Sequence record: MF158044
Length of the DNA stretch: 64,000 nucleotides
From: Shigella phage Sf18
Reading direction: 5' to 3' (one strand)
Shown here piece by piece: positions 8,531 through 55,581 of the stretch. Both the position numbers and the translations under genes were made by a program. Each line of letters opens with the position of its first letter. Position 1 is the stretch's first letter. Under the pieces are notes generated by a model that saw nothing but the letters and a program-made list of their open reading frames with translations, had not been told where the DNA came from and did not search any database.

Positions 8531-8830
8531 TTAATCTGCCAGCCTTAAGTTAAAGTTTACACCAAGTTTTGTACAAGCATTAAGCATGTACTCTAAAGAA
8601 ATCTTCTGAGGGTCGTTAATGATATTTGACACACGACTCTGTGAGATTTCACAAACAGTTGCTACTTGAGCCTGAGAAAGTTTTAGCTTCTCAATCTCTT
8701 TAGAGAATCTGAAAGATACAAAGTCTTTCATCTCTTCTATATCCATTGGACAGACATAACTCTCCATTTCAGCCTCTCTATCAGCCTCCCAAGAATCTTG
8801 AGGTGCATATGGGTCAAAGACTTCATTCAT
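8531..8830 (-). CDS. HTH (XRE-like) DNA-binding protein
   Basis: 99 aa; acidic N-terminus then helix-turn-helix-like segment QAQVATVCEISQSRVSNII. Confidence 0.4.
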   Translation of the reverse strand: MNEVFDPYAPQDSWEADREAEMESYVCPMDIEEMKDFVSFRFSKEIEKLKLSQAQVATVCEISQSRVSNIINDPQKISLEYMLNACTKLGVNFNLRLAD

Positions 8831-9485: not shown

Positions 9486-9744
9486 TATAGCTTATTTGGC
9501 AGATTTTTTATAAGGCTACTGCCATCCTTCCGCACCCGACCTGACCTCGCCCAACCTTACCTGACTGAACCACACCCGACCAAACATCACTTAAAAACCC
9601 TTTTCAAAGACTCTTAAGTGATGTAATCGAATTTTTATGTAGCTCCGATTAACTACCCATACCTAACCCCACCTTGCCACACCGAACCAGACCAAACCCA
9701 GCCTCATTAAAAGACCCTTTTAAAGACCTTTTAAAAAGGAGCCT
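9486..9744. repeat. composite repeat module A (pentamer NNACC tracts plus two hairpin modules)
   Basis: Two tracts of about 10 tandem 5-bp units with ACC every 5 nt; inverted repeat CATCACTTAA-N19-TTAAGTGATG; palindromic TTTTAAAAG-rich block; paralogous to 10886-11170. Confidence 0.6.
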
Positions 9745-9758
9745 CCGAAGAGGCTACC
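9734..9758 (-). terminator. intrinsic terminator
   Basis: On - strand AGCCTC-UUCG-GAGGCT hairpin followed by T-run, immediately downstream of the 9767 gene end. Confidence 0.45.
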
Positions 9759-10815: not shown

Positions 10816-10885
10816 TTAGTTGATTGTTAAGTTGTTTGTAAAGAACCCTCAACAGAAGACTCTTTAGAAACTTGGTAGATTTTTA

Positions 10886-11170
10886 ACGTGGCTACTACCA
10901 TCCACCCTTACCTCACTTTACCTAACCTGACCTTACCAGACCCAACCGGACACTACCCTACCTAGCGAAACCTCATTAAAAGACCCTTTTAAAGACCTTT
11001 TAAAAAGGTGAGTCTCATTTTAATGTAGCTGAGACTAACTACCCTCACCAAACCGGACCAGACCCAACCCAGCCATACCAGACCATACCACACCCAACCG
11101 AACCGAACCTTACCGAGCATCACTTAAAAACCCTCTTAAAAGACTCTTAAGTGATGCTGGTGAGTACCCG
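10886..11170. repeat. composite repeat module B (paralogue of module A)
   Basis: Same components as 9486-9744 (NNACC pentamer tracts, CATCACTTAA inverted repeat, CCTCATTAAAAGACCCTTTTAAAGACCTTTTAAAAAGG block) but with the two hairpin blocks in swapped order. Confidence 0.6.
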
Positions 11171-42176: not shown

Positions 42177-42199
42177 GGGCTGCTTCGGCAGCCTTTTTT
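42177..42199 (+). terminator. intrinsic terminator
   Basis: GGCTGC-TTCG-GCAGCC hairpin followed by TTTTTT. Confidence 0.55.
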
Positions 42200-42260
42200 A
42201 TTTGAAAAATGTGCAGGTTAGTGTATAATTGTCTGCATGTTTAACAAAATAGGAGTGCAA

Positions 42261-43958: not shown

Positions 43959-43969
43959 AGTTATTATAG

Positions 43970-45528: not shown

Positions 45529-46323
45529 ATGGGTATCGTAAAAATTATTAAAGGTGATATCTTTAAAGACTTTGATGGTAAGAAATTTGATATCATTGGT
45601 CACGGTTGTAACTGCATGAACTTGATGGGTGCAGGTATTGCAGCAACAATTGCTAAACGCTACCCAAAAGCTTATGAAACTGACGCTGAAGTTTATGCTA
45701 CAGTAGGTGGTGAAAATCATAACCCTAAGCATCTAATGCTTGGTAACATCTCTGTAGCACGTTTTAAGCAGGGTCGAATTGCTAACCTTTACACTCAGGT
45801 TATCACTGGCAAAGATGCACGATACAACGCCTTAGAAGCAGCTTTACAGCGTCTTAACAACTACTGTAAAGTTAATCAACTTAAGAAAGTTGGGCTTCCG
45901 ATGATTGGTGCAGGGATTGGTGGTCTTGATAGCATGGCTGTACTGTCCATTATCAACCAGACTATGAAGGATGTTGACGTTTATATGTATGTCTATGAAG
46001 ATAAGATGTACAGTCAGTTGACTAGTCCTGTTACTGGTTGGGAGAACTTCAGTGAGCCTCAATACTTTGATGGTGTTGCTGTGGTAGGCAAGGATAAAGT
46101 TACCCTCAAGGTGAAGCGTAATGGCAAGGTACACACCAGTTACCCTCCGGTTGAGAAGTACAATCGAAGTAACGCTCAAGTTACCCACCCGTTACAAGGT
46201 CACCACCACAGAGCGGTAACGTTTAGCGATGATGCAAGTGTATATATCAATGCGACTACAGAAGAGTTTGCAGAAGATTATATCACACATGAAAACGTAA
46301 ACTATGTTGAAGCACGTAACTAA
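45529..46323 (+). CDS. macro-domain protein (ADP-ribose binding/hydrolase family)
   Basis: Start at Met (MGIVKIIKGDIF); macro signatures GDIF, DIIGHGCNCMNLMGAGIAATI, VGLPMIGAGIGGL; C-terminal 120 aa unassigned. Confidence 0.55.
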   Translation: MGIVKIIKGDIFKDFDGKKFDIIGHGCNCMNLMGAGIAATIAKRYPKAYETDAEVYATVGGENHNPKHLMLGNISVARFKQGRIANLYTQVITGKDARYNALEAALQRLNNYCKVNQLKKVGLPMIGAGIGGLDSMAVLSIINQTMKDVDVYMYVYEDKMYSQLTSPVTGWENFSEPQYFDGVAVVGKDKVTLKVKRNGKVHTSYPPVEKYNRSNAQVTHPLQGHHHRAVTFSDDASVYINATTEEFAEDYITHENVNYVEARN

Positions 46324-46391
46324 TAAGTTACCCAGATAAACATAGACAAGCCCTCCAAAGTTTGAGTTTAAAATCTCAGGTAAGGGGGGCT

Positions 46392-46576
46392 TTTTCATTT
46401 TAAATTTGTGCAGGTATAGTTGCATAGAACTCTGGACAGATTTCTTTAGCTGAACTCCAAAGGGAAAATTCATTTCAAATTTGTGCAGGTTTAGACTCCA
46501 AAGGGATTTTTCATTTTCAATCTGTGCAGATGCAGTTGGACTCCAAAGGGAAAATTCATTTTCAGTTTGTGCAGGT
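46392..46576. repeat. tandem array of four ~42-bp repeats with TTTGTGCAGGT core
   Basis: Units (CTCCAAAGGG)(A/T)TTCATTT(Y)MARTYTGTGCAGRT at about 46392, 46466, 46507, 46552; followed by C-rich tract 46596-46630; related motif upstream of SLT-like gene at 42203-42230. Confidence 0.55.
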
Positions 46577-46749
46577 AGGTAGCTGTAGGAAACCAGCCCC
46601 ACCACCCCCTCTTACTCCCCTTCCTCCCAAAAGTCAAGAGAAAAATTTGTAGAGAACTCAAAAATAATTCTTGACTAGATTCCTGTTTTAGTGTATCCGC
46701 ATACGTGCGTTCTATTCACGAAGCATCGAAAATATTTTTAAAAATTTTG

Positions 46750-46778
46750 TTGACTTCATAAATCCAGTCTTATAGTAT
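46750..46778 (+). promoter_or_regulatory. type-B early promoter (first of array)
   Basis: TTGACT, spacer, TATAGTAT, then ATTTGCATCAACGGGAAACATCCC and conserved leader AACAATCCTAAACTGGAG. Confidence 0.4.
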
Positions 46779-46827
46779 TTGCATCAACGGGAAACATCCC
46801 AACAATCCTAAACTGGAGAATCTAAAA

Positions 46828-47034
46828 ATGTTATATCAACGTGAGTTAATGATTGTTGACAACAACAAAACAAATAAACGTCGTTTCTATATGCTAATTT
46901 GTGATGTTTGGCAACGTATCTCAGAAAAGGATTTTGATGAATATGTTGATACGTCAATCAGGTCTGATTGTTATTTGACAACTCACACAAGGCATTACAC
47001 AAGGCATACAGCCATTTATTACTATAACGTTTAA
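46828..47034 (+). CDS. small hypothetical protein (array gene 1)
   Basis: 68 aa; preceded by conserved leader CCTAAACTGGAGAATCTAAAAATG. Confidence 0.45.
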   Translation: MLYQRELMIVDNNKTNKRRFYMLICDVWQRISEKDFDEYVDTSIRSDCYLTTHTRHYTRHTAIYYYNV

Positions 47035-47045
47035 AAGGCTTGACA

Positions 47046-47204
47046 ATGGTTAAAGAAAACGATGTAATACAATACAAAGATTTAGACGGATACCCAAAAA
47101 TTGGTAAAGTCTTCTATCTCTATAAGTCTGCTATGGGTAATGATTGTATAGCCCTTACAAATGGCGACAAAATAACCATGAAAGATTTTATAAAAATTAA
47201 TTAA
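47046..47204 (+). CDS. small hypothetical protein (below track cut-off)
   Basis: 52-aa ORF found by eye; stop TAA fused to the type-A cassette; weak SD. Confidence 0.25.
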   Translation: MVKENDVIQYKDLDGYPKIGKVFYLYKSAMGNDCIALTNGDKITMKDFIKIN

Positions 47205-47293
47205 ATAAAGTGCTTTACATGGGGTTTAAAAGCTAGTATCTTAAGCCCCCAGATAAAGAGCTTTACCAACAATCCTAAACTGGAGAATCTAAA
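47205..47293 (+). promoter_or_regulatory. type-A cassette copy 1
   Basis: TTTACA-N17-TATCTT promoter-like hexamers embedded in 9-bp hairpin GGGGTTTAA/TTAAGCCCC, then CCCCAGATAAAGAGCTTTACCAACAATCCTAAACTGGAGAATCTAAAATG. Confidence 0.5.
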
Positions 47294-47674
47294 ATGAAAT
47301 ATCGTGCGCCTAAATTTATCAACAAAGAAAACTTTCGTAGTATCTTAGAGGAAACTATGAAAGAAAACTTCAAAGGAAAAATAATTGTTGTTCACGCTTA
47401 CAATTTTAAGTATGATGTTAATGGTAACCGTATTAACCACTACAAAGCTACTATGCTTGACGGTACATTATCCGGTGAAAAAGCTATCATAAATGCTATT
47501 GCAGGACGTGGTAAAACTGTGATACGCTGTGAAAAAAGACGCTATCAAGGCGGTAAATATGGGTATGAAGATGCAATGTACCATCTTGATAAAATGGGGT
47601 ATGATGTAGAGAAAGCTGGAGTATCTCAAACTATTGGTAGTGACGGCTACGTTACAGTTTTCAAAATTAACTAA
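47294..47674 (+). CDS. small hypothetical protein (array gene)
   Basis: 126 aa; conserved cassette leader and SD. Confidence 0.5.
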   Translation: MKYRAPKFINKENFRSILEETMKENFKGKIIVVHAYNFKYDVNGNRINHYKATMLDGTLSGEKAIINAIAGRGKTVIRCEKRRYQGGKYGYEDAMYHLDKMGYDVEKAGVSQTIGSDGYVTVFKIN

Positions 47675-47765
47675 ATAAAGTCCTTTACATGGGGTTTATA
47701 GTTAGATAAGATAAGCCCCAGATAAAGAGCTTTACCAAACAATAACCTAAACTGGAGTATCAAAA
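47675..47765 (+). promoter_or_regulatory. type-A cassette copy 2
   Basis: TTTACA-N17-TAAGAT with hairpin GGGGTTTAT/ATAAGCCCC; leader variant CCTAAACTGGAGTATCAAAAATG. Confidence 0.5.
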
Positions 47766-48023
47766 ATGGCTACTATCAAAAACATCATTGTATCTGCAAA
47801 ATCTCGTGATGACGCTCGCGCAACTGCTAAAAAACTAAATGGTAAAGTGGTTGACAACGGAAAAGAATCTGCTGTAAGATGGGGCGTAAAATGTGATAAG
47901 GAAATTACTTTAAAACGTAGTTCCTATGACCTTTTCAAAGGTGTAAAAGCAATCGGTAGAACTAACGTCTACACGAAGAAAGGTTATAAAATGCACTTAT
48001 CATTAACTGACAATTTAATCTGA
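47766..48023 (+). CDS. small hypothetical protein (array gene)
   Basis: 85 aa, basic; cassette leader. Confidence 0.5.
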   Translation: MATIKNIIVSAKSRDDARATAKKLNGKVVDNGKESAVRWGVKCDKEITLKRSSYDLFKGVKAIGRTNVYTKKGYKMHLSLTDNLI

Positions 48024-48114
48024 TAAAGTGCTTTACATGGGGTTTATAGTTAGATAATATAAGCCCCAGATAAAGAGCTTTACTAACCAATAGTCCTAAA
48101 CTGGAGAATCTAAA
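48024..48114 (+). promoter_or_regulatory. type-A cassette copy 3
   Basis: TTTACA-N17-TAATAT with hairpin; conserved leader. Confidence 0.5.
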
Positions 48115-48627
48115 ATGAATTTTGTTGAAGCTACCTTTGAAGTCCAAAAAGAAAAATTCACTATCATCTATGAAGCTGTTAATATTTGTGAAGCATCCCA
48201 TTGTGTGGAGAATTGGAAGTTTACCGATGAGCACAAAGGCGGGGTTACAATCAAACTTAAAAATCCAGAGCGTAACGGGTACAAATATGCAATTCCACAG
48301 CATTACAGCCTTTCACAATTGATGAGTGATTATGCTAAACAAGGCCGCGAAAATCCATCTATAGAGGCTTACAAGAGCTTACAAGATGAATTACAAAGAG
48401 ATTTAGAGGCTAACAGCTACGTGCTATTTGCAAAGGTAGAAGATAAAGAAGGTAATACAGTATTAAATAGCTTTTCTCTTGCTTATGGCTTCGATTGGTG
48501 CTATCTTGACGGGGAAGATTTAGATTCACGATTAGAAGAGGAAGTGTCGAACTCCGATGGAGAATCTGAAGTAATGGAACGTTTAGAAGCCTTGAAAGAT
48601 TCTGTTATGAATATCTTTAATATCTAA
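48115..48627 (+). CDS. hypothetical acidic protein (array gene)
   Basis: 170 aa; cassette leader; acidic C-terminal third. Confidence 0.5.
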   Translation: MNFVEATFEVQKEKFTIIYEAVNICEASHCVENWKFTDEHKGGVTIKLKNPERNGYKYAIPQHYSLSQLMSDYAKQGRENPSIEAYKSLQDELQRDLEANSYVLFAKVEDKEGNTVLNSFSLAYGFDWCYLDGEDLDSRLEEEVSNSDGESEVMERLEALKDSVMNIFNI

Positions 48628-48711
48628 AAGTGCTTTACATGGGGTTATCAAGTTGATAAGATAGCCCCAGATAAAGAGCTTTACAAACAATCCTAAACTG
48701 GAGAATCTAAA
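48628..48711 (+). promoter_or_regulatory. type-A cassette copy 4
   Basis: Hairpin variant GGGGTTATC/GATAGCCCC (compensatory change keeps pairing); TTTACA-N17-TAAGAT. Confidence 0.5.
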
Positions 48712-49008
48712 ATGTTTATTGCCGCAAACGTTAGAACTAAATTAAGCCAGCTATTAAGTAATATCCAATTCATTGAATCTATGCGCCGTACATCTGAAGC
48801 CGTAGAGTGGTATCATGGAAAGATTAACAAAAAGGAAGTAATAATTTGTGTATGGAACTTTTGTAAAGAATACAAAAAACCATTGCTTCAGGTTGATATC
48901 TATGATAACACTAATAAGTCATCGATTAAGACCACTAGAGATATGGTTGATTCATATGAAATTAGTCACACTGGTAAACTATTCCACAAAGGTAAAAACA
49001 AATGTTAA
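48712..49008 (+). CDS. small hypothetical protein (array gene)
   Basis: 98 aa; cassette leader; stop overlaps next start (ATGTTAA). Confidence 0.5.
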   Translation: MFIAANVRTKLSQLLSNIQFIESMRRTSEAVEWYHGKINKKEVIICVWNFCKEYKKPLLQVDIYDNTNKSSIKTTRDMVDSYEISHTGKLFHKGKNKC

Positions 49009-49349
49009 TCACATACGTTGCAATTTTTATCTCTATTGTGGCGCTCTATAAAGCCTTACAAGCGCACAGTATAGCTAATAAGGCACTTACAAGGGATTTA
49101 AAAATAAACCTTGTACGGGGCTTTCTAGAGCGTTTAAGCTTAGAACAATTGAAACGCTTAGAGATGAGCTTTCGATTCAAAGCAGAAACATACCGGATTG
49201 ATAACATCCTAGACGGGGATTTTAAATTAATCAGTGATTATGACATACTTCTTGAGTCAATTCAAGATATAAACCTGAAAGATTATTATATCGTGATAGC
49301 GCAAGAAATTAATAAAAAAGAGCTTGCAATGCAGAATCAAAACAAGTAA
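49002..49349 (+). CDS. small membrane protein (array gene)
   Basis: 115 aa; N-terminal TM (ITYVAIFISIVALY); last 11 codons (KKELAMQNQNK) lie inside a type-B promoter and are shared with ORF 52598-52738. Confidence 0.45.
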   Translation: MLITYVAIFISIVALYKALQAHSIANKALTRDLKINLVRGFLERLSLEQLKRLEMSFRFKAETYRIDNILDGDFKLISDYDILLESIQDINLKDYYIVIAQEINKKELAMQNQNK

Positions 49350-49352
49350 AGT
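49324..49352 (+). promoter_or_regulatory. type-B promoter overlapping gene 3' end
   Basis: TTGCAA-N17-TAAAGT; the TAA of the -10 hexamer is the stop codon of ORF 49002-49349. Confidence 0.45.
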
Positions 49353-49629
49353 ATTCATCAACGGTACTAATGACGGTCGAACTTTGAACGTAACTTTAAA
49401 ACACTATATAGACGGTGTATTAAACTTTGAAGAGTTAAGAGCAGAACAGCACCTATTAGATTGGCAAGTAGCAGGTTTACAAAAAACCGCCACAGGATAT
49501 GGAAAGAAAATTCCTACATCTTGGAAAGTTCGATACCTTGGAAAGTTACGCAGAATTTATCAAGATGTTTACAGTAATAGCGGCGTAAGTTACATTATTG
49601 TTAGTGGTAAAAAATTGTATTTAGTCTAA
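49324..49629 (+). pseudogene. ORF without canonical start or leader (possible 5'-truncated gene)
   Basis: 101-aa frame open only from TTG at 49324; no in-frame ATG and no CTAAACTGGAG leader; begins inside the type-B promoter; ends at a normal type-A cassette. Confidence 0.25.
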
Positions 49630-49718
49630 TAAATTGCTTTACATGGGGTTATCAAGTTGCTAAGATAGCCCCAGATAAAGAGATTTATCTAAAACTAACC
49701 TAAACTGGAGACTAGAAA
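49630..49718 (+). promoter_or_regulatory. type-A cassette copy 5
   Basis: Hairpin variant GGGGTTATC/GATAGCCCC; leader variant ACCTAAACTGGAGACTAGAAAATG. Confidence 0.5.
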
Positions 49719-50126
49719 ATGACTAATGTTAATCACAAAGAAGTTGCAATTTTGAAAGCACGTTTGACCATTAACCGCATCAACATTGTAACATCAGCAG
49801 CACCAGACGAAACACTACATAATATCATCGGTAAAATTCAGGGCGCAGTAGTAGACACAAAACAGCTTAAAGAATCCTTGCAAGATGTAGCAGCAGGAGC
49901 TATAATTGACGGTGCTCAATATGAGATGAAGGAAATGCTGTCAAAGTCAAAAGTAATGAATAAAGAACTTGACTTGAAAATGTTTAGATTTGCTGTTAAA
50001 GTGTGGCTATGTGTTGATTTTGATGCAAACTTTGCAATTGCTGATTTCTTTGCAACATGGTTACAGCGTAACTTACCGGTTGAAGTTTTCCGTGAAATCT
50101 GCGATGCAATTTATTCAGAAATTTGA
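49719..50126 (+). CDS. hypothetical protein (array gene)
   Basis: 135 aa; cassette leader. Confidence 0.5.
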   Translation: MTNVNHKEVAILKARLTINRINIVTSAAPDETLHNIIGKIQGAVVDTKQLKESLQDVAAGAIIDGAQYEMKEMLSKSKVMNKELDLKMFRFAVKVWLCVDFDANFAIADFFATWLQRNLPVEVFREICDAIYSEI

Positions 50127-50155
50127 TTGACACTGCAAAAGCATAGTAGTAAAGT
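50127..50155 (+). promoter_or_regulatory. type-B early promoter
   Basis: TTGACA-N17-TAAAGT starting on the base after the upstream stop codon; followed by conserved leader. Confidence 0.5.
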
Positions 50156-50198
50156 ACTCATCAGACAACGAAACAACCCTAAACTGGAGATTCAAAAG

Positions 50199-50447
50199 AT
50201 GAAAACAAAAACACAACTCAAAAGTATGATGAAAAATGGTTTTCTCGATGATGTATACAAAGAATGTAGACGGTATGGGGAAATAAAAAGTAATTTCGAT
50301 TTTGAGTACACGTATACAGTGAATTTCAAAACTAACGAACGAAAAACAGACCTTGTAACTGAGATTCAAATAGAATACAAAGATTTATTATGGACTTTTG
50401 AACTTGTAAAAGGTTTATGCACATCGGCAGGTTATAAAAACATCTAA
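50199..50447 (+). CDS. small hypothetical protein (array gene)
   Basis: Start at internal Met (MKTKTQLK) after CTGGAGATTCAAAAG; the track N-terminal extension would translate the promoter. Confidence 0.45.
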   Translation: MKTKTQLKSMMKNGFLDDVYKECRRYGEIKSNFDFEYTYTVNFKTNERKTDLVTEIQIEYKDLLWTFELVKGLCTSAGYKNI

Positions 50448-50532
50448 AAGTGCTTTACATGGGGTTTATAGTTAGATAAGATAAGCCCCAGATAAAGAGC
50501 TTTACCAACAATCCTAAACTGGAGAATCTAAA
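50448..50532 (+). promoter_or_regulatory. type-A cassette copy 6
   Basis: Consensus copy: TAAAAGTGCTTTACATGGGGTTTATAGTTAGATAAGATAAGCCCCAGATAAAGAGCTTTACCAACAATCCTAAACTGGAGAATCTAAAATG. Confidence 0.5.
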
Positions 50533-51090
50533 ATGAAATGCTTTCATGGTACTACACAAGAAAACTTTGTAAACCTTATCAATGGCGGTGATAAACCATC
50601 AGGAGCTTGGAATTGCTCTGATATGGATGGATGTTTTTACGTCTACCCTGTTAACAAGTTCTATGATGTAGAGAATCTGGATGACGAACAAATCACAGAT
50701 GAAGGTATTAGAAACGCGCTTGATAGCGCAAGCATTACAGCAGCCTATCAAATGAAGTCACAAAAGCTTGTTATCTTGGAACTGGATATTCCAGAAGATG
50801 ATTTACAAGATGACTGGAGCTGTGAGAACATGAGCGACGTAGCAAGCTTTACAGAATATTTCGATAAAGAATGGATTAAAAAGGTTTACACAACTGAATT
50901 TAATGCTATGTATGCGCCTTTCTTTGTCCCTAACCTAAACAATAGAAATTTAGGATATGTACCAGACGAACTACGCAACATTGCAGAAATAGTCCAACGT
51001 AGTGATGGGATGAGCAATGTATATTGTGATATCTTTGACACCATGCAATGCAACGTAACAGAAACGGTTATAAACGACTTAACAGCATAA
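50533..51090 (+). CDS. hypothetical protein with ADP-ribosyltransferase-like N-terminal motif (tentative)
   Basis: 185 aa; N-terminal CFHGTTQENFVNLI resembles the HG[ST]...N..I signature of H-Y-E class ART folds (PARP/Tpt1-like), followed by Tyr cluster FYVYPVNKFY; cassette leader. Confidence 0.3.
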   Translation: MKCFHGTTQENFVNLINGGDKPSGAWNCSDMDGCFYVYPVNKFYDVENLDDEQITDEGIRNALDSASITAAYQMKSQKLVILELDIPEDDLQDDWSCENMSDVASFTEYFDKEWIKKVYTTEFNAMYAPFFVPNLNNRNLGYVPDELRNIAEIVQRSDGMSNVYCDIFDTMQCNVTETVINDLTA

Positions 51091-51153
51091 ACCATAGAAT
51101 CACACCAGTTCACTAGAAAAGCCCCGCACAGGGGCTTACAAGAGGCTTAAAAC

Positions 51154-51384
51154 ATGCTTACTACAATCTATCTTATTCTATCTATCTGCAATGGTTCACA
51201 GTGTGACTTTAAAGGTTTAGAAGAGTTTACAGGTAGCGAAAATAATGCTATTGTTGCCTGTCAGATAGCAAGGCAAGACTACCCAACATCGGATGATATC
51301 CAATGTTACTATAAGTCAGAAGATGATGAAGGTATTTACTTTGATAGTGTGAATGGTGAATATGAGATTCTTATAGAAAAGTAG
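51154..51384 (+). CDS. small hypothetical protein (array gene)
   Basis: 76 aa; SD CAAGAGG; preceded by GCCCC-GCACA-GGGGC hairpin. Confidence 0.4.
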   Translation: MLTTIYLILSICNGSQCDFKGLEEFTGSENNAIVACQIARQDYPTSDDIQCYYKSEDDEGIYFDSVNGEYEILIEK

Positions 51385-51413
51385 TTGACACTGAAAACGC
51401 AAGAAAGTAAAGT
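51385..51413 (+). promoter_or_regulatory. type-B early promoter
   Basis: TTGACA-N17-TAAAGT immediately after upstream stop; then ATTCATCAACGGGAAACATCCC and leader. Confidence 0.5.
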
Positions 51414-51462
51414 ATTCATCAACGGGAAACATCCCAACAATCCTAAACTGGAGATTCAAAAA

Positions 51463-51684
51463 ATGTTGCAAGTTCTTAACGTAAAAACCATTGATTTTAA
51501 ATTCTCAAATGTTCGTCGTACCTATTTACAGCCGTTTAGTAAACCTGTTAGGATTCCCAACGATGACGCTAAAAAGTTGATTGATGAAATTCTAGCTAAT
51601 GGCGGTTATCTGGCTAGTCATAAGCAGTATAATGATGAGGATGGAAGCCTGATAAATGAGTTTACATATTATTACTACAAATAA
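51463..51684 (+). CDS. small hypothetical protein (array gene)
   Basis: Start at internal Met (MLQVLNVK) after CTGGAGATTCAAAAA. Confidence 0.45.
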   Translation: MLQVLNVKTIDFKFSNVRRTYLQPFSKPVRIPNDDAKKLIDEILANGGYLASHKQYNDEDGSLINEFTYYYYK

Positions 51685-51775
51685 CTAATAAAGTGCTTTA
51701 CATGGGGTTTATAGTTAGCTAAGATAAGCCCCAGATAAAGAGCTTTACCAACAATCCTAAACTGGAGAATCTAGA
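51685..51775 (+). promoter_or_regulatory. type-A cassette copy 7
   Basis: TTTACA-N17-TAAGAT with hairpin; leader CTGGAGAATCTAGAATG. Confidence 0.5.
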
Positions 51776-51973
51776 ATGTTATCACTGATGCAAAAACTTT
51801 CTACCTTGTGGTGTTTAAAAGGTGTAGAGTGTAACCTTAACATGGAAGGTTCAAAGATAGACCTAAAAATAGTATACAATGGAGAAATACTATTCTCACA
51901 GAATAGCAGTCATCCACACTTCAAAGATAATGCAATTATGGCCGTGAATAATCTGATGGATAGAATTTATTAA
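51776..51973 (+). CDS. small hypothetical protein (array gene)
   Basis: 65 aa; cassette leader. Confidence 0.45.
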   Translation: MLSLMQKLSTLWCLKGVECNLNMEGSKIDLKIVYNGEILFSQNSSHPHFKDNAIMAVNNLMDRIY

Positions 51974-52058
51974 AGTGCTTTACATGGGGTTTAAAAGCTA
52001 GTATCTTAAGCCCCAGAGAAAGAGCTTTACCAACAATCCTAAACTGGAGAATCTGAAA
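51974..52058 (+). promoter_or_regulatory. type-A cassette copy 8
   Basis: Hairpin variant GGGGTTTAA/TTAAGCCCC; -10-like TATCTT. Confidence 0.5.
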
Positions 52059-52400
52059 ATGGCCTATGTAACAATTATCACCGATAAAGAAAATTCGTCA
52101 TGGTCTACCCAAGTTAACGACAAAATGAAACCTATGCAGTGTCTCAAGTACTTTGAGCAATGGAACAGGGGAGAAGATGTAAGCCCCTTTCAAGTGATGC
52201 AGATTGTACATGTTGACAATGAAGGGAATAAAACTACCCTTAACACTGAATACTATGCTACACGTTTCGAAACTCGCAAATCAGCTATGCAGGAGTTAAG
52301 AGAAAAGGGATATAGTCACATTGCCGCGCTCATTTGGTCTGATTTGCTTAAAAAACAGTCATTAACCTATGTTAAGCCAGAAAAAATCTTTATAAGCTAA
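52059..52400 (+). CDS. hypothetical protein (array gene)
   Basis: 113 aa; cassette leader. Confidence 0.5.
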   Translation: MAYVTIITDKENSSWSTQVNDKMKPMQCLKYFEQWNRGEDVSPFQVMQIVHVDNEGNKTTLNTEYYATRFETRKSAMQELREKGYSHIAALIWSDLLKKQSLTYVKPEKIFIS

Positions 52401-52597
52401 TCAACAACTTATAAAAAATCTTTTGAAAAACTATTGACAATGCCCCTTGACAAGTGTAACTTTGTTCGAGGGGGTTTATCTAAAAGGGGTTAACTTAATA
52501 GATTCTTTATAGATAAGCGTAAAAAGTACTTGCAAAGGTCTAATCATATCTATATAGTATCTTCAAAAGGCAACTTCCTAAACTGGAGAATCACTAA
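52401..52597 (+). promoter_or_regulatory. intergenic control region with stacked promoter-like boxes
   Basis: TTGACAATGCCCCTTGACAAG (two -35-like boxes) and TTGCAA-spacer-TATATAGTA, then leader CCTAAACTGGAGAATCACTAAATG. Confidence 0.35.
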
Positions 52598-52738
52598 ATG
52601 TTAGATATCATTAAAAACCCTATCCTTTGCGGTATGATTGTTTCTGTTGTGTTGCCATTAGCAATGCTCATCATTGGTGAAATCTCAGATAAACTTTTTG
52701 ATAAAAAACTACTTGCAATGCAGAATCAAAACAAGTAA
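52598..52738 (+). CDS. small membrane protein (below track cut-off)
   Basis: 46-aa ORF found by eye; TM core (ILCGMIVSVVLPLAMLIIG); conserved leader; C-terminal KKLLAMQNQNK encoded by the type-B promoter sequence. Confidence 0.4.
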   Translation: MLDIIKNPILCGMIVSVVLPLAMLIIGEISDKLFDKKLLAMQNQNK

Positions 52739-52741
52739 AGT
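52713..52741 (+). promoter_or_regulatory. type-B promoter overlapping gene 3' end
   Basis: TTGCAA-N17-TAAAGT; identical over about 45 nt to 49324-49362; followed by hairpin GGGGAGG-GAGA-CCTCCCC and leader. Confidence 0.45.
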
Positions 52742-52802
52742 ATTCATCAACGGGGAGGGAGACCTCCCCACTAAACAAAATTCCTAAACTGGAGAATCTA
52801 GA

Positions 52803-53330
52803 ATGAATAAGTTTAATGCTGTTAATGCAATCCGTAGCCGTGAAGTGATGAGCAAGCCTTGTAAAGATACTTGGGAATTTACCTTAAAGAGCAAAGTTTT
52901 TGCAGTTATCACAAAAGGGGAAGATAAGCAGTTTTATGTACACCGACCAAATGTAAAAGCGGTAACAGCCAACAACTTTATGGGGGCTATTTCTCTTATT
53001 CTGAATGATTATATGGCTATAGTCGCAGAAATTCACGAAATGGCTATTAAGGCAACTAAAAACGAGTTAAACCGCTTTAAAATGGCTTATGAGCGCTCTA
53101 TTAAGTCCCATAATCTTTTTATTGCAATCCACTATACAGGCATGTATGCTATGGGAACGGGTAACCAACAATACCCACTCTATGAAGTGGAAAACATCTT
53201 TACAAGTGACTACCCAACAACTAATTTTAAAATTACGTTAGGGGAAGCATTAAATAGGGGAATTAGGCTTTACGAACAATCTTTAAAAAACTTAGAAAAT
53301 TCCCTTGACGAAATCATCACAAATCTATAA
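52803..53330 (+). CDS. hypothetical protein (array gene)
   Basis: 175 aa; cassette leader. Confidence 0.5.
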   Translation: MNKFNAVNAIRSREVMSKPCKDTWEFTLKSKVFAVITKGEDKQFYVHRPNVKAVTANNFMGAISLILNDYMAIVAEIHEMAIKATKNELNRFKMAYERSIKSHNLFIAIHYTGMYAMGTGNQQYPLYEVENIFTSDYPTTNFKITLGEALNRGIRLYEQSLKNLENSLDEIITNL

Positions 53331-53333
53331 AGT
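53305..53333 (+). promoter_or_regulatory. type-B early promoter
   Basis: TTGACG-N17-TAAAGT, with TAA as the upstream gene's stop; then CTTATCAACGGGGAGGGAATGACCTTCCCC hairpin and leader. Confidence 0.45.
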
Positions 53334-53390
53334 ACTTATCAACGGGGAGGGAATGACCTTCCCCAACAATCCTAAACTGGAGACTAGAAA

Positions 53391-53654
53391 ATGAATAATC
53401 AAGAAATCACTATCCTGTTACAAATCGGTACTGACAAAGAAGATATCCAACTTTGCAAACGTATTGAAAGTGATTGGTTCAACGGTGAAATCATCGCAGA
53501 ATCTTATGAAGTAGTCGGATTCATGAATGGTGAAATTGTAAGCCATTTCGGTTTAACTAAATCTGAAGCCGTTGCAAAGTATGACGTTTTATCTTGTGAG
53601 ATTCTTACAAAATACAATGAAAAAAGACTTGCAACTTATGCAGCAATGAATTAA
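53391..53654 (+). CDS. small hypothetical protein (array gene)
   Basis: 87 aa; leader CCTAAACTGGAGACTAGAAAATG. Confidence 0.5.
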   Translation: MNNQEITILLQIGTDKEDIQLCKRIESDWFNGEIIAESYEVVGFMNGEIVSHFGLTKSEAVAKYDVLSCEILTKYNEKRLATYAAMN

Positions 53655-53657
53655 TAT
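53629..53657 (+). promoter_or_regulatory. type-B early promoter
   Basis: TTGCAA-N17-TAATAT, with TAA as the upstream stop; then TTTCAACGGGGAGGGAGACTTCCCC hairpin and leader. Confidence 0.45.
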
Positions 53658-53719
53658 TACTTTCAACGGGGAGGGAGACTTCCCCACTAACCTAAATTCC
53701 TAAACTGGAGAATCTGAAA

Positions 53720-53971
53720 ATGGCTACTATCCACGCAACTGTTAACAATTTTGGCTTCCATGTATTAGATGTTAAATTTGATATGGTTGGAACTGGCGAT
53801 GTTTTTGGCATGGTTGATATGTGTCTAAAAGCAACTATTCAGGACTACAATCAATCTGAGTGGTTCTGGAAAGAAGTAAAACAAGAAGTCTTAAAGGATG
53901 GCAAATCCTCTTACTATTGGGGTGATTCTCTTATCACGCTTTACTATGAAGTTGACGGCTTCAATAACTAA
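53720..53971 (+). CDS. small hypothetical protein (last array gene)
   Basis: 83 aa; cassette leader. Confidence 0.5.
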   Translation: MATIHATVNNFGFHVLDVKFDMVGTGDVFGMVDMCLKATIQDYNQSEWFWKEVKQEVLKDGKSSYYWGDSLITLYYEVDGFNN

Positions 53972-54035: not shown

Positions 54036-55581
54036 ACGTCTTCCTAGAATCTTACCATTGATTCGATAGAATCTATCCCATACATTTAGAATAATAACTC
54101 TATAGCTTACTCTATATCCTCTTATCAAATCAACTTAAATATAAGCCCATAACCCGAAAGGGAAGGGCAATCCCTAAAACGCTCTATAACGCTCTATACG
54201 GGCTTATCATCTCATCTTAAGCAATCATATTAACCTGCTCTTAAAAGCCCTTTATAGAGCTTTCTAGAGCCTTAAAAGAATCTTATAAGGGTATAAGCTT
54301 TATTATCTCGTTAGTATCTTGTGAATGGTTAAACAGGGGCTTGATAATAGCTTTAAAGTATGTTATGGAGTCTTCAAAGTAACGTAAAAGAACCTTAAAA
54401 GTAACGTAAAAGTTAGCCCCCTTTACATTCTCTTAACAAAATCTTAACAAATGCTACATAGTTATGCTTGTTAGCCCCTTGTTAAATCCTTGTTAGAGGT
54501 ATGTTAAGAGCTTGTTAGCCTCTTTGAAGTCCCTGTATAAGCCCCTAGAAAGCCCTATAAAGAGCTATACAGGTAGTTGGGGTGTAGTTACTAGGGAGAA
54601 CCTTAGAAGAGGCTATATAGAGCTATACAGAGCTTTTAAGAGGGCTTTATAGAGAATCACTAAGAAGGGAAGGGAACTATAGACCAAGAGATAGTGACCA
54701 TGTTAATAGCTTGTTAAAAAGGTTTAGAACTTGTTAGCACCTTGTTAATTATCTTAACAAAATAACTCTTAAGATTTAACTATTTAGCAACTTATAAGCA
54801 ACTTGTTAGACCCTTGTTAGTAGTGTTACAGACTGGTTAAGCTCTTGTTAGTTCTGTTAAGAGGCTGTTAAGAACTTTGAAGAGATGTTAAGAGCTTGAG
54901 AGAGTTGTTAAGAGATTGTTAATGATATTTTAAGATTTTGCAAAGGGGATGTTACAGGGCTGTTTAGGGCTACCAAGCAGATATACACCCTAAGTAGATA
55001 TTTTTCAGATTCTCCAAAGACCCTAAAAAGTAACCTACCTAGTCTATTTTATAAAAATTTTATAATTCTGAATAACTATCTATACACTATCTTATATAAA
55101 ACAGGAATTAACAGGCTTATAAGATACCTTGTTAGTACCGTGTTAGACCTTGTAGGATAAGCCTAAGAGGTTGATTCTTAAGAACAACCGAATCAACTAG
55201 AAGGGAATACCTGTTTAGTGTTATATAACAGTCTATATAGAGGCTTAGTAATACCTAGTGATTCTGCTATATAGGGTACTATCGTTTACCTAGAGATTAA
55301 GATGGCTATAGGGGCTTCTAAGGGGCTAGGAAGAGGTTAGGAAGGTGATTGTATAGGGTTGATTAATGGTAGGCTTAGAAGGCTTTATAGAGGGCTATAT
55401 AGAGAGCACTATTTAGGGACTAAGAGGTTATATAGATACTATATAATACTATATAGAGATGATGCTTAGAGAGGGTGTTTAGAAGGGTATAGATATTTTA
55501 TCACATATCATGGTGACCCAAGATGAACGGAGTGAATCCCAAATTTTATAAAAATTATAAATTTCGTAAATTTTACTCAAT
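54036..55581. repeat. ORF-free repeat-dense region (candidate origin, packaging or terminus region)
   Basis: No ORF of 60 aa or more on either strand across about 1.6 kb; dense short degenerate repeats (CTTGTTAG, GTTAAGAG, TATAGAGC, TTAGAAGG, AGTAACGTAAAAG x2) and AT-rich palindromes ATTTTATAAAAAT. Confidence 0.6.

What the first reader, a model, noticed from the sequence alone, without database searches (positions are those of the whole stretch)
46392..46576. Four tandem ~42-bp repeats with a TTTGTGCAGGT core ahead of the small-gene array
Between the macro-domain gene and the first array gene lie four head-to-tail units, each with a CTCCAAAGGG-like start, TTCATTT and (T/C)TGTGCAG(G/A)T, followed by a 35-nt polypyrimidine tract. 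A related sequence (TTTGAAAAATGTGCAGGTTAGTGTATAATTGTCTGCA, with TGCAG/CTGCA flanking a TATAAT) precedes the secreted SLT-like gene at 42203-42236. Tandem copies of a motif that elsewhere overlaps a -10 box suggest an operator array or stacked promoters for a phage-specific regulator.
Basis: seen in the sequence. Interest (0 to 1): 0.5.

Follow-up and report, generated by a model that had tools for sequence, protein, structure and literature searches.

The report
Conserved repeat array in FelixO1-like phages
The four repeats are real: they are copies of an 18-base two-part motif, TCATTT-7 bases-GTGCA, kept at the same non-coding junction in every Felix-O1-like phage examined and almost nowhere else in the genome, so they look like docking sites for one sequence-specific factor rather than promoters for a class of genes; what they do is not known.

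Summary
The window is a Mooglevirus (Ounavirinae, Felix-O1-like). The four units exist at 46373-46576.

**What is conserved**
- The conserved core is T(C/T)ATTT-N7-GTGCA(GG)TA.
- Only unit 1 is a stable hairpin. It is the intrinsic terminator that ends the long rightward operon (replication genes through rII and lysis genes to the macro-domain gene).
- A fifth copy follows the rIIB terminator (42198-42218).
- Three or four units, in the same order and at the same junction (macro-domain gene to early small-gene array), occur in 28 distinct Moogle-, Felix- and SUSP-type sequences.
- Arrays of four units also occur in Erwinia Kolesnikviruses and in a metagenomic relative whose macro protein is only 39% identical.
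- In those distant phages the core is TCATTT-N7-GTGCATAG. The N7 spacing is kept, but promoter-like spacing is not.

**What it is not**
- In two complete genomes the motif occurs only in the array, plus the rIIB site in Sf14, so it does not mark a promoter class.
- The array is not the genome end; the terminal-repeat homologue lies at 54425-54976.
- It is not protein-coding and is not a conserved structured RNA.
- It shows none of the replication-origin hallmarks tested.

**Best reading (about 0.4):** an array of binding sites for an unidentified, probably phage-encoded factor. It would form a boundary or switch element between the terminator and the early promoters.

The mechanism is unproven and I found no published description. 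Interest is moderate.

The parts
46348..46403 (+). Intrinsic terminator of the upstream operon, forming the left part of unit 1: hairpin GCCCTCC...GGGGGGC followed by CTTTTTCATTTT
   Evidence: Folds at -20.7 kcal/mol, z-score -3.45 on the plus strand. It is homologous to terminator t13 of Felix O1 (PMC3185647). The stem shows compensating changes between lineages and G-U pairs that fit only the plus-strand RNA.
46373..46415 (+). Unit 1; core TCATTT(46395)-N7-GTGCAGGT(46408-46415)
46448..46490 (+). Unit 2; core TCATTT(46470)-N7-GTGCAGGT(46483-46490); no stable hairpin
46489..46531 (+). Unit 3; core TCATTT(46511)-N7-GTGCAGAT; no stable hairpin
46534..46576 (+). Unit 4; core TCATTT(46556)-N7-GTGCAGGT(46569-46576). 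This is the best-conserved unit: TTGTGCAGGTAG is almost invariant in the coliphage types.
46596..46630 (+). C-rich, G-poor tract; on the minus strand it reads as a G-quadruplex-type run. Present in Moogle types, Felix lineage 1 and Erwinia types, but replaced in Felix lineage 2.
   Evidence: GC 0.59 against a window mean of 0.39; lineage comparison
46609..46637 (-). Candidate leftward promoter pointing into the array: TTGACT (46637-46632), 17-base spacer, TAAGAG (46614-46609)
   Evidence: Read from the sequence. The TTGAC of the -35 hexamer is invariant in the 28 coliphage-type sequences. The -10 is weak here (G at the last position), TAGCCT/TAGTCT in Felix lineage 2, and TTGACC-18-TATACT (10 of 12) in the Erwinia phage. 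Whether it is active is unknown.
46630..46686 (.). Most conserved non-coding block of the junction, AAAAGTCAA.AGAAAAATTTGTAG.G.A.T.AAAAATAATTCTTGA; it holds two back-to-back -35 hexamers and the A/T-rich DNA between them
   Evidence: GC 0.30-0.31
46671..46699 (+). Weak rightward promoter-like site: TTGACT, 17-base spacer, TATCCG
   Evidence: Read from the sequence; the -35 hexamer is conserved; below the scan threshold
46750..46778 (+). First strong early promoter (an A/T-rich upstream stretch, then TTGACT-17-TAGTAT) ahead of the first small gene (ATG at 46828)
   Evidence: a promoter is annotated at the homologous place in phage ASO1B
42173..42229 (+). Outlying fifth copy: the rIIB terminator hairpin, then TTATTT(42198)-N7-GTGCAGGT(42211-42218). 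The GTGCAGGT lies inside the spacer of the strong promoter TTGAAA-16-TATAAT of the SLT-like gene.
   Evidence: Conserved as TTATTT-N7-GTGCAGAG in Felix types; absent from the Erwinia phage.

Best explanation
The four units are tandem, same-orientation copies of an 18-22 bp two-part recognition site, T(C/T)ATTT-N7-GTGCA(GG)TA. An unidentified sequence-specific DNA-binding factor, most likely phage-encoded, would bind them.

The array begins at the tail of the intrinsic terminator that ends the roughly 30-kb rightward operon (replication genes, then rII, lysis genes and the macro-domain gene). It fills the non-coding junction in front of the promoters of the early small-gene array.

When occupied, the array would act as a boundary or switch element in two ways:
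- It would stop polymerases that read through the terminator, backed up in most lineages by a C-rich, Rho-loading-type tract.
- It would cover the weak promoter-like sequences that overlap the units.

The single outlying copy does the same job at the rIIB-to-lysis-gene junction. There it sits inside the spacer of a strong promoter.

**Shown:** the motif, its fixed internal spacing, its confinement to these two loci, its conservation across genera, the terminator in unit 1, and the absence of coding capacity or conserved RNA structure.

**Inferred:** that a protein binds the units, that the protein is phage-encoded, and that the outcome is insulation or repression.
For: 1. Purifying selection acts on two short blocks separated by a variable spacer of fixed length. 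Information content is near the maximum at TCATTT and GTGCAG and low elsewhere, across 81 distinct units from 28 distinct sequences.
2. The array sits at the same place (macro-domain gene, terminator, array, early genes) in all lineages examined. Three or four units are found in Moogle, Felix and SUSP types. Four are found in Erwinia Kolesnikviruses, spaced 37, 37 and 39 bases. Four clear units occur in an 88-kb metagenomic relative whose macro protein is only 39% identical.
3. The 3' half-site changed in all units together (GTGCAGGTA to GTGCATAG) while TCATTT-N7-GTGCA stayed fixed. This is what a co-evolving binding partner predicts.
4. Genome-wide, the motif is confined to the array plus one terminator/promoter junction.
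5. At both loci the motif directly follows a genuine terminator. At 42.2 kb it lies inside a promoter spacer scoring 11 of 12.
6. There is no conserved RNA structure on either strand beyond unit 1. There is no conserved reading frame.
7. Mosaic replacement of the unit flanks and of the C-rich tract leaves the cores intact.
Against: - No binding protein is identified. The neighbouring genes give no DNA-binding signal. The only annotated HTH protein is missing from the Erwinia phage.
- Spacing between units is not kept in helical phase (37-45 and 73-77 bp), so cooperative binding on one face of the DNA is not indicated.
- An array 130-380 bp upstream of the first early promoter cannot by itself control the roughly 15 further early promoters.
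- Concerted change of all units could also result from gene conversion among the repeats, without any co-evolving protein.
- There are no expression or binding data for this region. The Felix O1 RT-PCR table is not strand-specific and is uninformative here.
Confidence: 0.4

Rival explanations
1. Replication origin. The four direct repeats are iteron-like sites for an initiator. The adjacent A/T-rich block with back-to-back promoters supplies the unwinding region and transcriptional activation. The C-rich/G-rich tract favours an R-loop primer for the T7-like replisome (family A polymerase plus primase-helicase).
For: - Direct repeats lie next to a block with GC 0.30 and next to promoters.
- Apart from the terminal-repeat zone, this is the largest conserved non-coding junction I noted in the genomes examined.
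- The candidate leftward promoter is followed at once by a G-rich transcript in three lineages.
- The replisome is of the T7 type, which can use RNA-polymerase transcripts as primers (annotation; the mechanism is from general knowledge of T7).
Against: - There is no GC- or AT-skew inflection at the site; the skew simply follows gene orientation.
- There are no DnaA boxes, IHF sites or GATC clusters.
- No initiator gene is recognisable nearby.
- The G-rich/C-rich tract is replaced in Felix lineage 2.
- A fifth copy at the rIIB junction is hard to explain for an origin.
Confidence: 0.15
2. Tandem host-polymerase promoters, or terminator-promoter cassettes. Each unit would be a weak sigma-70 promoter (xxxTCA-17-TAnnnT) firing rightward into the early genes, possibly needing a phage factor that recognises GTGCAGG just upstream of the -10.
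For: - Unit 1 scores TTTTCA-17-TATAGT, 9 of 12. TTTTCA is one base away from the phage's own early -35, TTTACA.
- In Felix O1, units 1, 2 and 4 carry TAGAGT, TAATCT and TAGGTT at the correct distance.
- The 42.2-kb copy overlaps a promoter scoring 11 of 12.
Against: - Units 2-4 of the window fail the scan, and unit 3 has no -10 in any lineage.
- The -35-like to -10-like distance falls to 15 bp in the Erwinia and L095 lineages, although the motif is fully conserved there.
- At 42.2 kb the motif sits about 5 bp further from the -10 than in unit 1, so it is positioned relative to the terminator tail and not to the promoter.
- The best-conserved bases (GTGCAG, TCATTT) are not the bases sigma-70 reads.
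- The motif is absent upstream of any other gene.
Confidence: 0.12
3. RNA-level element. A leftward transcript from the conserved promoter right of the array carries four unstructured repeats, UGCAC-N7-AAAUGA. These resemble the shared translation-initiation region of the early genes with its Shine-Dalgarno sequence removed. The RNA would act as a decoy or sponge for a factor that recognises early mRNAs. Alternatively, rightward read-through RNA acts as a partial antisense to those regions.
For: - A minus-strand promoter is present at the homologous place in three lineages and is strong in the Erwinia phage (TTGACC-18-TATACT, 10 of 12).
- The minus strand of all six units tested aligns better than the plus strand to the early-gene consensus CCTAAACTGGAGAATCTAAAATG. 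That consensus has 15 copies in the window, and shuffle p-values are 0.001-0.05.
- The repeats are predicted to be unstructured, as protein-sponge RNAs often are.
Against: - In the window's own lineage the -10 is TAAGAG, lacking the key last T (read from the sequence).
- The similarity is driven largely by the low-complexity AAAATGA.
- In the Erwinia phage the early-gene consensus changed (ACCCTTAnAAAGGAATCAAAAATG) without a matching change in the units.
- Complementarity to the early mRNAs breaks exactly at the Shine-Dalgarno bases.
- There is no terminator-quality signal for a leftward RNA in Felix types (sequence reading).
Confidence: 0.1
4. Decayed tandem duplications of the terminator tail with no function of their own, kept similar by gene conversion. 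At most they would act as weak back-up terminators together with the C-rich Rho-loading tract.
For: - Units 2-4 look like unit 1 with the inside of the hairpin deleted: CTCCAAAG-GGG-(A/T)5-TCATTTT.
- TTTTTCATTT is the usual terminator tail in this phage; another terminator at 43968 has it without GTGCAG.
- Exchange between units and between lineages is visible.
Against: - Neutral repeats would not keep the same number, order and core in lineages whose flanking macro protein has diverged to 39% identity, nor across three or more genera.
- The conserved bases lie downstream of the U-tract (GTGCA), not in the hairpin. Units 2 and 4 have A-runs rather than T-runs before TCATTT, so they cannot act as terminators.
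- Units 2-4 have z-scores of 0 or above for folding.
Confidence: 0.08

Closest known systems
Iterons of phage and plasmid replication origins (lambda ori O-binding repeats, P1/F/R6K iterons, T4 oriE repeats) - compared from general knowledge
   Same: Three to five same-orientation direct repeats of a roughly 20-bp site in a non-coding stretch, next to an A/T-rich segment and to promoters. The cores are conserved and the spacers are free to vary.
   Different: Spacing is 37-77 bp rather than about 22 bp. There is no neighbouring initiator gene, no DnaA or IHF sites, and no skew signal. One extra copy sits at an unrelated terminator/promoter junction.
Bacillus phage phi29 early/late switch region (four p4 binding sites between promoters A2c/A2b and A3) - compared from general knowledge
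   Same: A compact non-coding junction holds several sites for one phage regulator, placed among divergent promoters at the border between temporal gene classes. Binding to a site that overlaps a promoter represses it.
   Different: p4 sites are inverted repeats (CTTTTT-N15-AAAATG). The sites here are asymmetric direct repeats. No p4- or p6-like protein is identified. There is no sequence relationship beyond the chance resemblance of CTTTTT and CATTTT.
Phage T5 injection-stop-signal repeat region (Davison, bioRxiv 10.1101/866236)
   Same: A large untranslated, repeat-rich region marks the inner border of the block of first-expressed genes near one genome end. Here the array lies about 7.9 kb (about 9% of the genome) from the terminal-repeat homologue. 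The early genes between them are transcribed toward that end.
   Different: The T5 region is defined by eight DnaA boxes, palindromes and inverted repeats, and none of these is present here. Two-step DNA entry is not known for Felix-O1-like phages. The resemblance is positional only.
T4-type PeSL cassettes (promoter-early stem-loop repeats between small early genes) - compared from general knowledge
   Same: Short conserved regulatory repeats in the plastic early region, and signs of recombination between copies. The true PeSL-like modules of this phage are the promoter + hairpin + shared translation-start repeats in front of about 15 early genes.
   Different: The units of this finding lie upstream of that array, are not attached to genes, and lack both the promoter and the stem-loop of those modules.
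Intrinsic (Rho-independent) terminators, including tandem terminators
   Same: Unit 1 and the 42.2-kb site are canonical: a G+C-rich hairpin followed by TTTTT(C/T)ATTT (t13 and t2 of Felix O1).
   Different: Units 2-4 have no hairpin. Units 2 and 4 have an A-run where the U-tract should be. The conserved GTGCA lies 13 bp beyond the tail, outside any known terminator element.

Membership tests
Sigma-70 promoter | -35 and -10 hexamers close to TTGACA and TATAAT, separated by 16-18 bp | tested here: not met
   Only unit 1 passes (TTTTCA-17-TATAGT, 9 of 12). Units 2-4 are not reported.
Sigma-70 promoter | Promoter geometry conserved in relatives | tested here: not met
   The distance from TCA to TA is 17 bp in coliphage types and 15 bp in the Erwinia and L095 types, while TCATTT-N7-GTGCA is invariant.
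Phage-specific (middle or late) promoter class | The same motif upstream of many co-regulated genes across the genome | tested here: not met
   Complete Sf14 genome: the motif occurs only in the array, plus one site. Complete Fifi318 genome: array only.
Intrinsic terminator | Stable G+C-rich hairpin followed directly by a U-tract | tested here: inconclusive
   Met for unit 1 (-20.7 kcal/mol, z -3.45) and for the 42.2-kb site (-15.6 kcal/mol, z -3.41). Not met for units 2-4 (z from +0.1 to +1.0).
Replication origin with iterons | Direct repeats beside an A/T-rich unwinding region | tested here: met
   Four repeats. The adjacent 46631-46760 has GC 0.30, against 0.39 for the window.
Replication origin with iterons | Strand-composition switch, host-factor sites (DnaA, IHF, GATC) or an adjacent initiator gene | tested here: not met
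   No skew inflection. No DnaA, IHF or GATC matches. Neighbouring proteins have no known function.
Replication origin with iterons | Replication starts there | not testable with these tools
   Needs marker-frequency analysis or 2-D gels.
Operator or binding-site array for a DNA-binding protein | Repeated short motif under purifying selection, with fixed half-site spacing and a variable spacer | tested here: met
   Conservation profile from 81 distinct units; alignments; distant lineages.
Operator or binding-site array for a DNA-binding protein | An identified cognate protein that binds the sites | not testable with these tools
   The only candidate, the HTH protein gp095, is absent from the Erwinia phage.
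Genome terminus, terminal repeat or packaging site | Coincides with the physical genome ends | tested here: not met
   The experimentally determined 608-bp terminal repeat of the Felix-like phage UAB_Phi87 (PMC4837284, Fig. S1) aligns to window 54425-54976 (73% identity, E 3e-91). That is 7.85 kb away from the array.
Protein-coding gene (as annotated in several records) | Reading frame conserved across relatives | tested here: not met
   Indels of 2 and 4 bases and unit spacings of 41 against 39 bases shift the frame between lineages. Minus-strand ORFs of 22 to 137 aa end at different places.
Structured non-coding RNA (Rfam family or new) | Match to a known family, or a conserved and covarying secondary structure | tested here: not met
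   No Rfam match at gathering score, and only chance-level hits below it. RNAalifold finds nothing beyond the unit 1 hairpin on either strand.

The most novel reading that the evidence does not exclude
The array is the body of a leftward non-coding RNA, made from the conserved promoter just to its right. The RNA's four unstructured repeats (UGCAC-N7-AAAUGA) mimic the shared translation-initiation region of the roughly 15 early genes, but lack its Shine-Dalgarno sequence. The RNA would therefore titrate a factor that recognises early mRNAs, such as a translational repressor or nuclease in the manner of T4 RegA or RegB, and so help time the shut-off of early gene expression.
Probability: 0.07. 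Interest if true: 0.75.

Novelty: new variant of a known kind. Interest (0 to 1): 0.45.

Why it matters
Felix O1 and its relatives are classical typing phages and are now widely used as therapy and biocontrol phages. How they time transcription is openly described as unknown (PMC3185647).

This array is a sharply defined cis-element conserved across the subfamily. It sits exactly where the long replication/lysis operon ends and the early host-takeover genes begin. The records and papers I examined do not describe it, and several records annotate it as small ORFs that do not hold up.

If the array is a binding-site array, it gives a direct handle for fishing out the unknown regulator, using an 18-bp bait with natural variant controls from the Erwinia phages. 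It also allows a test of how these phages insulate or switch temporal gene classes without their own RNA polymerase. If it is an origin, it would be the first one mapped in the group. In either case it is a region that genome engineers should not disturb unknowingly.

Tried and rejected
1. **Genome end or packaging site.** Rejected. The published terminal repeat of UAB_Phi87 maps to 54425-54976.
2. **Genome-wide promoter motif.** Rejected by scans of the complete genomes.
3. **Known RNA family or structured RNA.** None found.
4. **Coding.** The frames are not conserved.
5. **Origin hallmarks.** Skew, DnaA, IHF and GATC are all negative.
6. **Link to the TATAGAG-type repeats of the terminal-repeat zone.** Only one TGTAGAG lies in the junction, which is no enrichment.
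7. **'Most conserved stretch of the genome' as an explanation for assemblies breaking here.** Not so. Longer exact matches between lineages exist in coding DNA.
8. **DNA-binding neighbours.** Pfam and PHROGs give nothing for ten flanking proteins.
9. **Mimicry of, or antisense to, the early translation-initiation region.** Weakly significant in coliphage types but not mirrored in the Erwinia phage. Kept only as a low-probability rival.
10. **Minus-strand promoters inside the units.** Two such sites appear in the Erwinia phage, but the coliphage types have no matching -35.
11. **Host transcription-factor motifs.** Comparisons from memory (CRP, sigma-54, sigma-E, MarA-type box, OmpR, NtrC, EcoKI site) gave no convincing fit. 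None was tested formally.
12. **Literature.** Searches for transcript maps or any description of this region found nothing. One search was too loose and was wasted.
13. **Two-copy pattern scan of IMG/VR.** It also picked up tail-fibre coding repeats, which are coincidental.
Full report
**Identity of the window.** The 2-kb stretch around the finding is 96-98% identical to Citrobacter phage BSwM KMM2 and to Shigella phages Henu11, Sf13, Sf17 and Sf19. It is 89-93% identical to Citrobacter phages Moogle, Mordin and Michonne. The window is therefore a Mooglevirus (Ounavirinae, Felix-O1-like myoviruses, about 88 kb).

In the fully annotated relative Sf14 a rightward block runs from the genes next to the DNA polymerase through the following genes:
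- primase-helicase and the nucleotide-metabolism genes;
- rIIA and rIIB;
- an SLT-like lysin, polynucleotide kinase and the spanins;
- a macro-domain 'phosphatase'.

A 0.5-kb non-coding junction follows, and then about 20 small genes of unknown function.

- Tandem Repeats Finder gives one array at 46454-46576 (score 147), the best in the window.
- The repeat finder places four in-register copies at 46373, 46448, 46489 and 46534.
- The exact 9-mer TGTGCAGGT occurs four times in 64 kb, three of them in the array and one at 42210.
- The composite TCATTT-N7-GTGCAG occurs four times, all in the array, where about 0.03 would be expected by chance.

**Anatomy of the units.**
- Unit 1 is a genuine intrinsic terminator. 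Its hairpin folds at -20.7 kcal/mol (z -3.45) and is followed by CTTTTTCATTTT. It is homologous to t13 of Felix O1.
- The stem of unit 1 differs between lineages by compensating changes. It contains G-U pairs that fit only the plus-strand RNA.
- Units 2-4 have no significant structure (z of 0 or above).
- Units 2-4 look like unit 1 with the inside of the hairpin removed. Units 2 and 4 have an A-run where a U-tract should be.
- What the four units share, and what is conserved, is a two-part core: T(C/T)ATTT, seven variable bases, then GTGCAG(G/A)T(A).
- The site near 42.2 kb has exactly this geometry. The rIIB terminator hairpin (-15.6 kcal/mol) is followed by TTATTT-N7-GTGCAGGT. That GTGCAGGT lies inside the spacer of the strong promoter TTGAAA-16-TATAAT of the SLT-like gene.

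**Conservation in close and moderately related phages.**
- BLAST of the junction alone finds 255-258 phage records, nearly all Ounavirinae. Felix O1 itself matches at about 75% identity.
- I aligned 28 distinct sequences from GenBank and IMG/VR. Most have four units in the same order, with spacings of 73-77, 39-41 and 43-45 bp. Two (L009, L021) lack unit 2.
- Information content is near the maximum at TCATTT and GTGCAG and low in the N7 spacer and the flanks.
- The flanks are mosaic. The 5' part of unit 4 comes in three forms. The C-rich tract after unit 4 is replaced in a second Felix lineage by an unrelated segment that carries an extra GTGCAGGT. One contig combines a Felix-type unit 1 with Moogle-type units 3 and 4.
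- The fifth copy after rIIB is also conserved in Felix types, as TTATTT-N7-GTGCAGAG.

**Conservation in distant lineages.**
- In Erwinia phage Fifi318 (Kolesnikvirus) the macro-domain gene is followed by a separate terminator, then four units with the core T(C/T)ATTT-N7-GTGCATAG spaced 37, 37 and 39 bp, then again a C-rich tract.
- In the whole Fifi318 genome the motif occurs only there.
- A two-copy pattern scan of IMG/VR found further Kolesnikvirus-type arrays and one more lineage, L095 (an 88-kb contig). Its macro protein is only 39% identical, yet four clear units (GTG(C/G)AT(A/T)G) follow that gene.
- The remaining hits of that scan were coincidental repeats in tail-fibre coding sequence.
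- The half-site spacing therefore never changes, while the 3' half-site changed in all copies together.

**What the array is not.**
- *Not a promoter class.* In complete Sf14 the composite motif is confined to the array. The only other intergenic GTGCAGGT is the rIIB site. Only unit 1 scores as sigma-70-like (9 of 12). The TCA-to-TA distance is 17 bp in coliphage types but 15 bp in the Erwinia and L095 types.
- *Not the genome end.* The experimentally determined 608-bp terminal repeat of UAB_Phi87 (PMC4837284) aligns to 54425-54976.
- *Not coding.* Several records annotate small ORFs here: Sf14 gp039, Moogle gp115, Mordin gp126, Felix O1 ORF31-34, wV8 gp13 and Fifi318 gp93. Indels of 2 and 4 bases and changes in unit spacing shift the frame between lineages, and the ORFs differ in length and end point.
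- *Not a known or structured RNA*.
- *No origin hallmarks.* The skew follows gene orientation only. There are no DnaA, IHF or GATC sites. The flanking proteins have no recognisable function.

**The rest of the junction.**
- After unit 4 comes the C-rich, G-poor tract (46596-46630, GC 0.59).
- Next is the best-conserved non-coding block (46630-46686). It contains two back-to-back -35 hexamers separated by A/T-rich DNA.
- The leftward site is TTGACT(46637-46632)-17-TAAGAG. The rightward site is TTGACT(46671)-17-TATCCG.
- In the window both -10 elements end in G and are weak. The leftward site is TTGACT-17-TAGCCT/TAGTCT in Felix lineage 2 and TTGACC-18-TATACT (10 of 12) in the Erwinia phage. A leftward transcript across the array is therefore possible.
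- The first strong early promoter follows at 46750-46778, and the first early gene starts at 46828.
- About 15 early genes share the translation-start consensus CCTAAACTGGAGAATCTAAAATG.
- The minus strand of the units resembles that consensus with GGAG replaced by GCAC (p 0.001-0.05 per unit). The resemblance rests largely on AAAATGA and is not mirrored in the Erwinia phage, so I give it little weight.

**Interpretation.** Several observations point the same way:
- two short invariant blocks at a fixed distance;
- free spacers and mosaic flanks;
- a conserved copy number and position;
- confinement to one or two loci;
- a concerted change of one half-site in distant genera.

Together these are best explained by recognition by one sequence-specific factor, most simply a DNA-binding protein that co-evolves with the phage.

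Both loci lie directly after real terminators, at borders between gene sets that plausibly need different timing (rII against the lysis genes; the long operon against the early host-takeover genes). At 42.2 kb the site lies inside a strong promoter. I therefore propose a boundary or switch element: the bound factor blocks read-through and covers the overlapping promoter-like sequences. The C-rich tract would act as a Rho-dependent back-up in most lineages.

This is an inference, and I put it at about 0.4. The rivals are:
- an iteron-type origin (0.15);
- tandem weak promoters (0.12);
- an RNA-level decoy or antisense (0.10);
- functionless decayed terminator copies (0.08).

That argues against it as the universal partner.

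**Literature.** The Felix O1 genome paper lists t13 and states that temporal control of transcription is unknown. Its RT-PCR table is not strand-specific. I found no description of this array, and no transcript-start or protein-binding data for any Ounavirinae, in the searchable library. Public annotation of the region is limited to the terminator, one early promoter and the ORFs I consider spurious.

**Verdict.** This is a real, strongly conserved and apparently undescribed cis-element of a well-known phage subfamily. Its kind (a repeat array of binding sites at a regulatory junction) is familiar. Its motif, its seeding on terminator tails and its function are not yet explained. Interest is moderate.

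Noticed in passing
window 54425-54976 (wider zone about 54100-55500): Homologue of the experimentally determined 608-bp direct terminal repeat of the Felix-like phage UAB_Phi87 (73% identity, E 3e-91). It is embedded in a gene-free zone packed with repeats of 10-11 bp period (CTTGTTAGACC, TGTTAAGAG, TATAGAG...). The physical genome ends probably lie here.
   Followed up: partly
window 46780-53720: About 15 small early genes each carry the same upstream module: a TTTACA-17-TAAGAT/TAAAGT promoter, a hairpin (AAGCCCCAGATAAAGAGCTT), and the near-identical translation start CAACAATCCTAAACTGGAGAATCTAAAATG. This resembles the PeSL cassettes of T4-type phages. Mordin annotates part of it as 'repeat_region'.
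   Followed up: partly
window 9640-9745 and 10880-11150: Two or three intergenic tracts among minus-strand genes are C/A-rich on the plus strand (ACC-type repeats such as CCAAACCAGACCAGACCAAACCCAG). Each is next to a duplicated AAAAGACCCTTTTAAAGACCTTTTAAAAAGG element and a hairpin. They are C-rich on the plus strand, like the tract after the array, even though the local genes run the other way.
   Followed up: no
window about 46580-46700; L005/L006 (TH10), MN850610 (Andreotti), L011, L013, L015/L022, L012/L053: Several independent public assemblies start or end within about 120 bases of the array. TH10 has a 74-bp end overlap beginning in the C-rich tract. Andreotti starts just after unit 4. 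Four contigs of IMG/VR metagenome 3300045988 break here, one with a 55-bp end overlap. This could be an assembly-graph artefact of a conserved block or of the repeats, or a real coverage or nick anomaly. It is not resolved.
   Followed up: partly
window 46192-46661 minus strand; Sf14 gp039, Moogle gp115, Mordin gp126, Felix O1 ORF31-34, wV8 gp13, Fifi318 gp93: Public records annotate small hypothetical proteins across the repeat array, on either strand. Frames and lengths are not conserved between lineages, so these are very probably false gene calls.
   Followed up: yes
window 46609-46614 (minus) and 46694-46699 (plus): The two back-to-back promoter-like sites flanking the conserved A/T-rich block both have good -35 hexamers (TTGACT). 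Both also have -10 hexamers of the unusual form TAnnnG (TAAGAG; TATCCG, or TAGTCG in Felix O1). The G at the last position is conserved on the plus-strand site across lineages.
   Followed up: no
L033, L037, L038, L048, L050, L052, L059, L066, L071, L074, L077 (Felix lineage 2), region homologous to window 46577-46630: In this lineage the C-rich tract is replaced by GGTGGGTGCAGGTGGGGATGTCGCCATTTCTCACAAGGCTACC... This adds a further GTGCAGGT copy without a TCATTT partner, and gives the leftward promoter a better -10 (TAGCCT/TAGTCT).
   Followed up: partly
window 8531-8830 minus strand: The Cro/C1-type HTH protein is 100% identical to Sf14 gp095. It has no detectable homologue in the Erwinia Kolesnikvirus Fifi318, where the syntenic stretch between the dihydrofolate reductase and ligase genes is much shorter.
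   Followed up: partly
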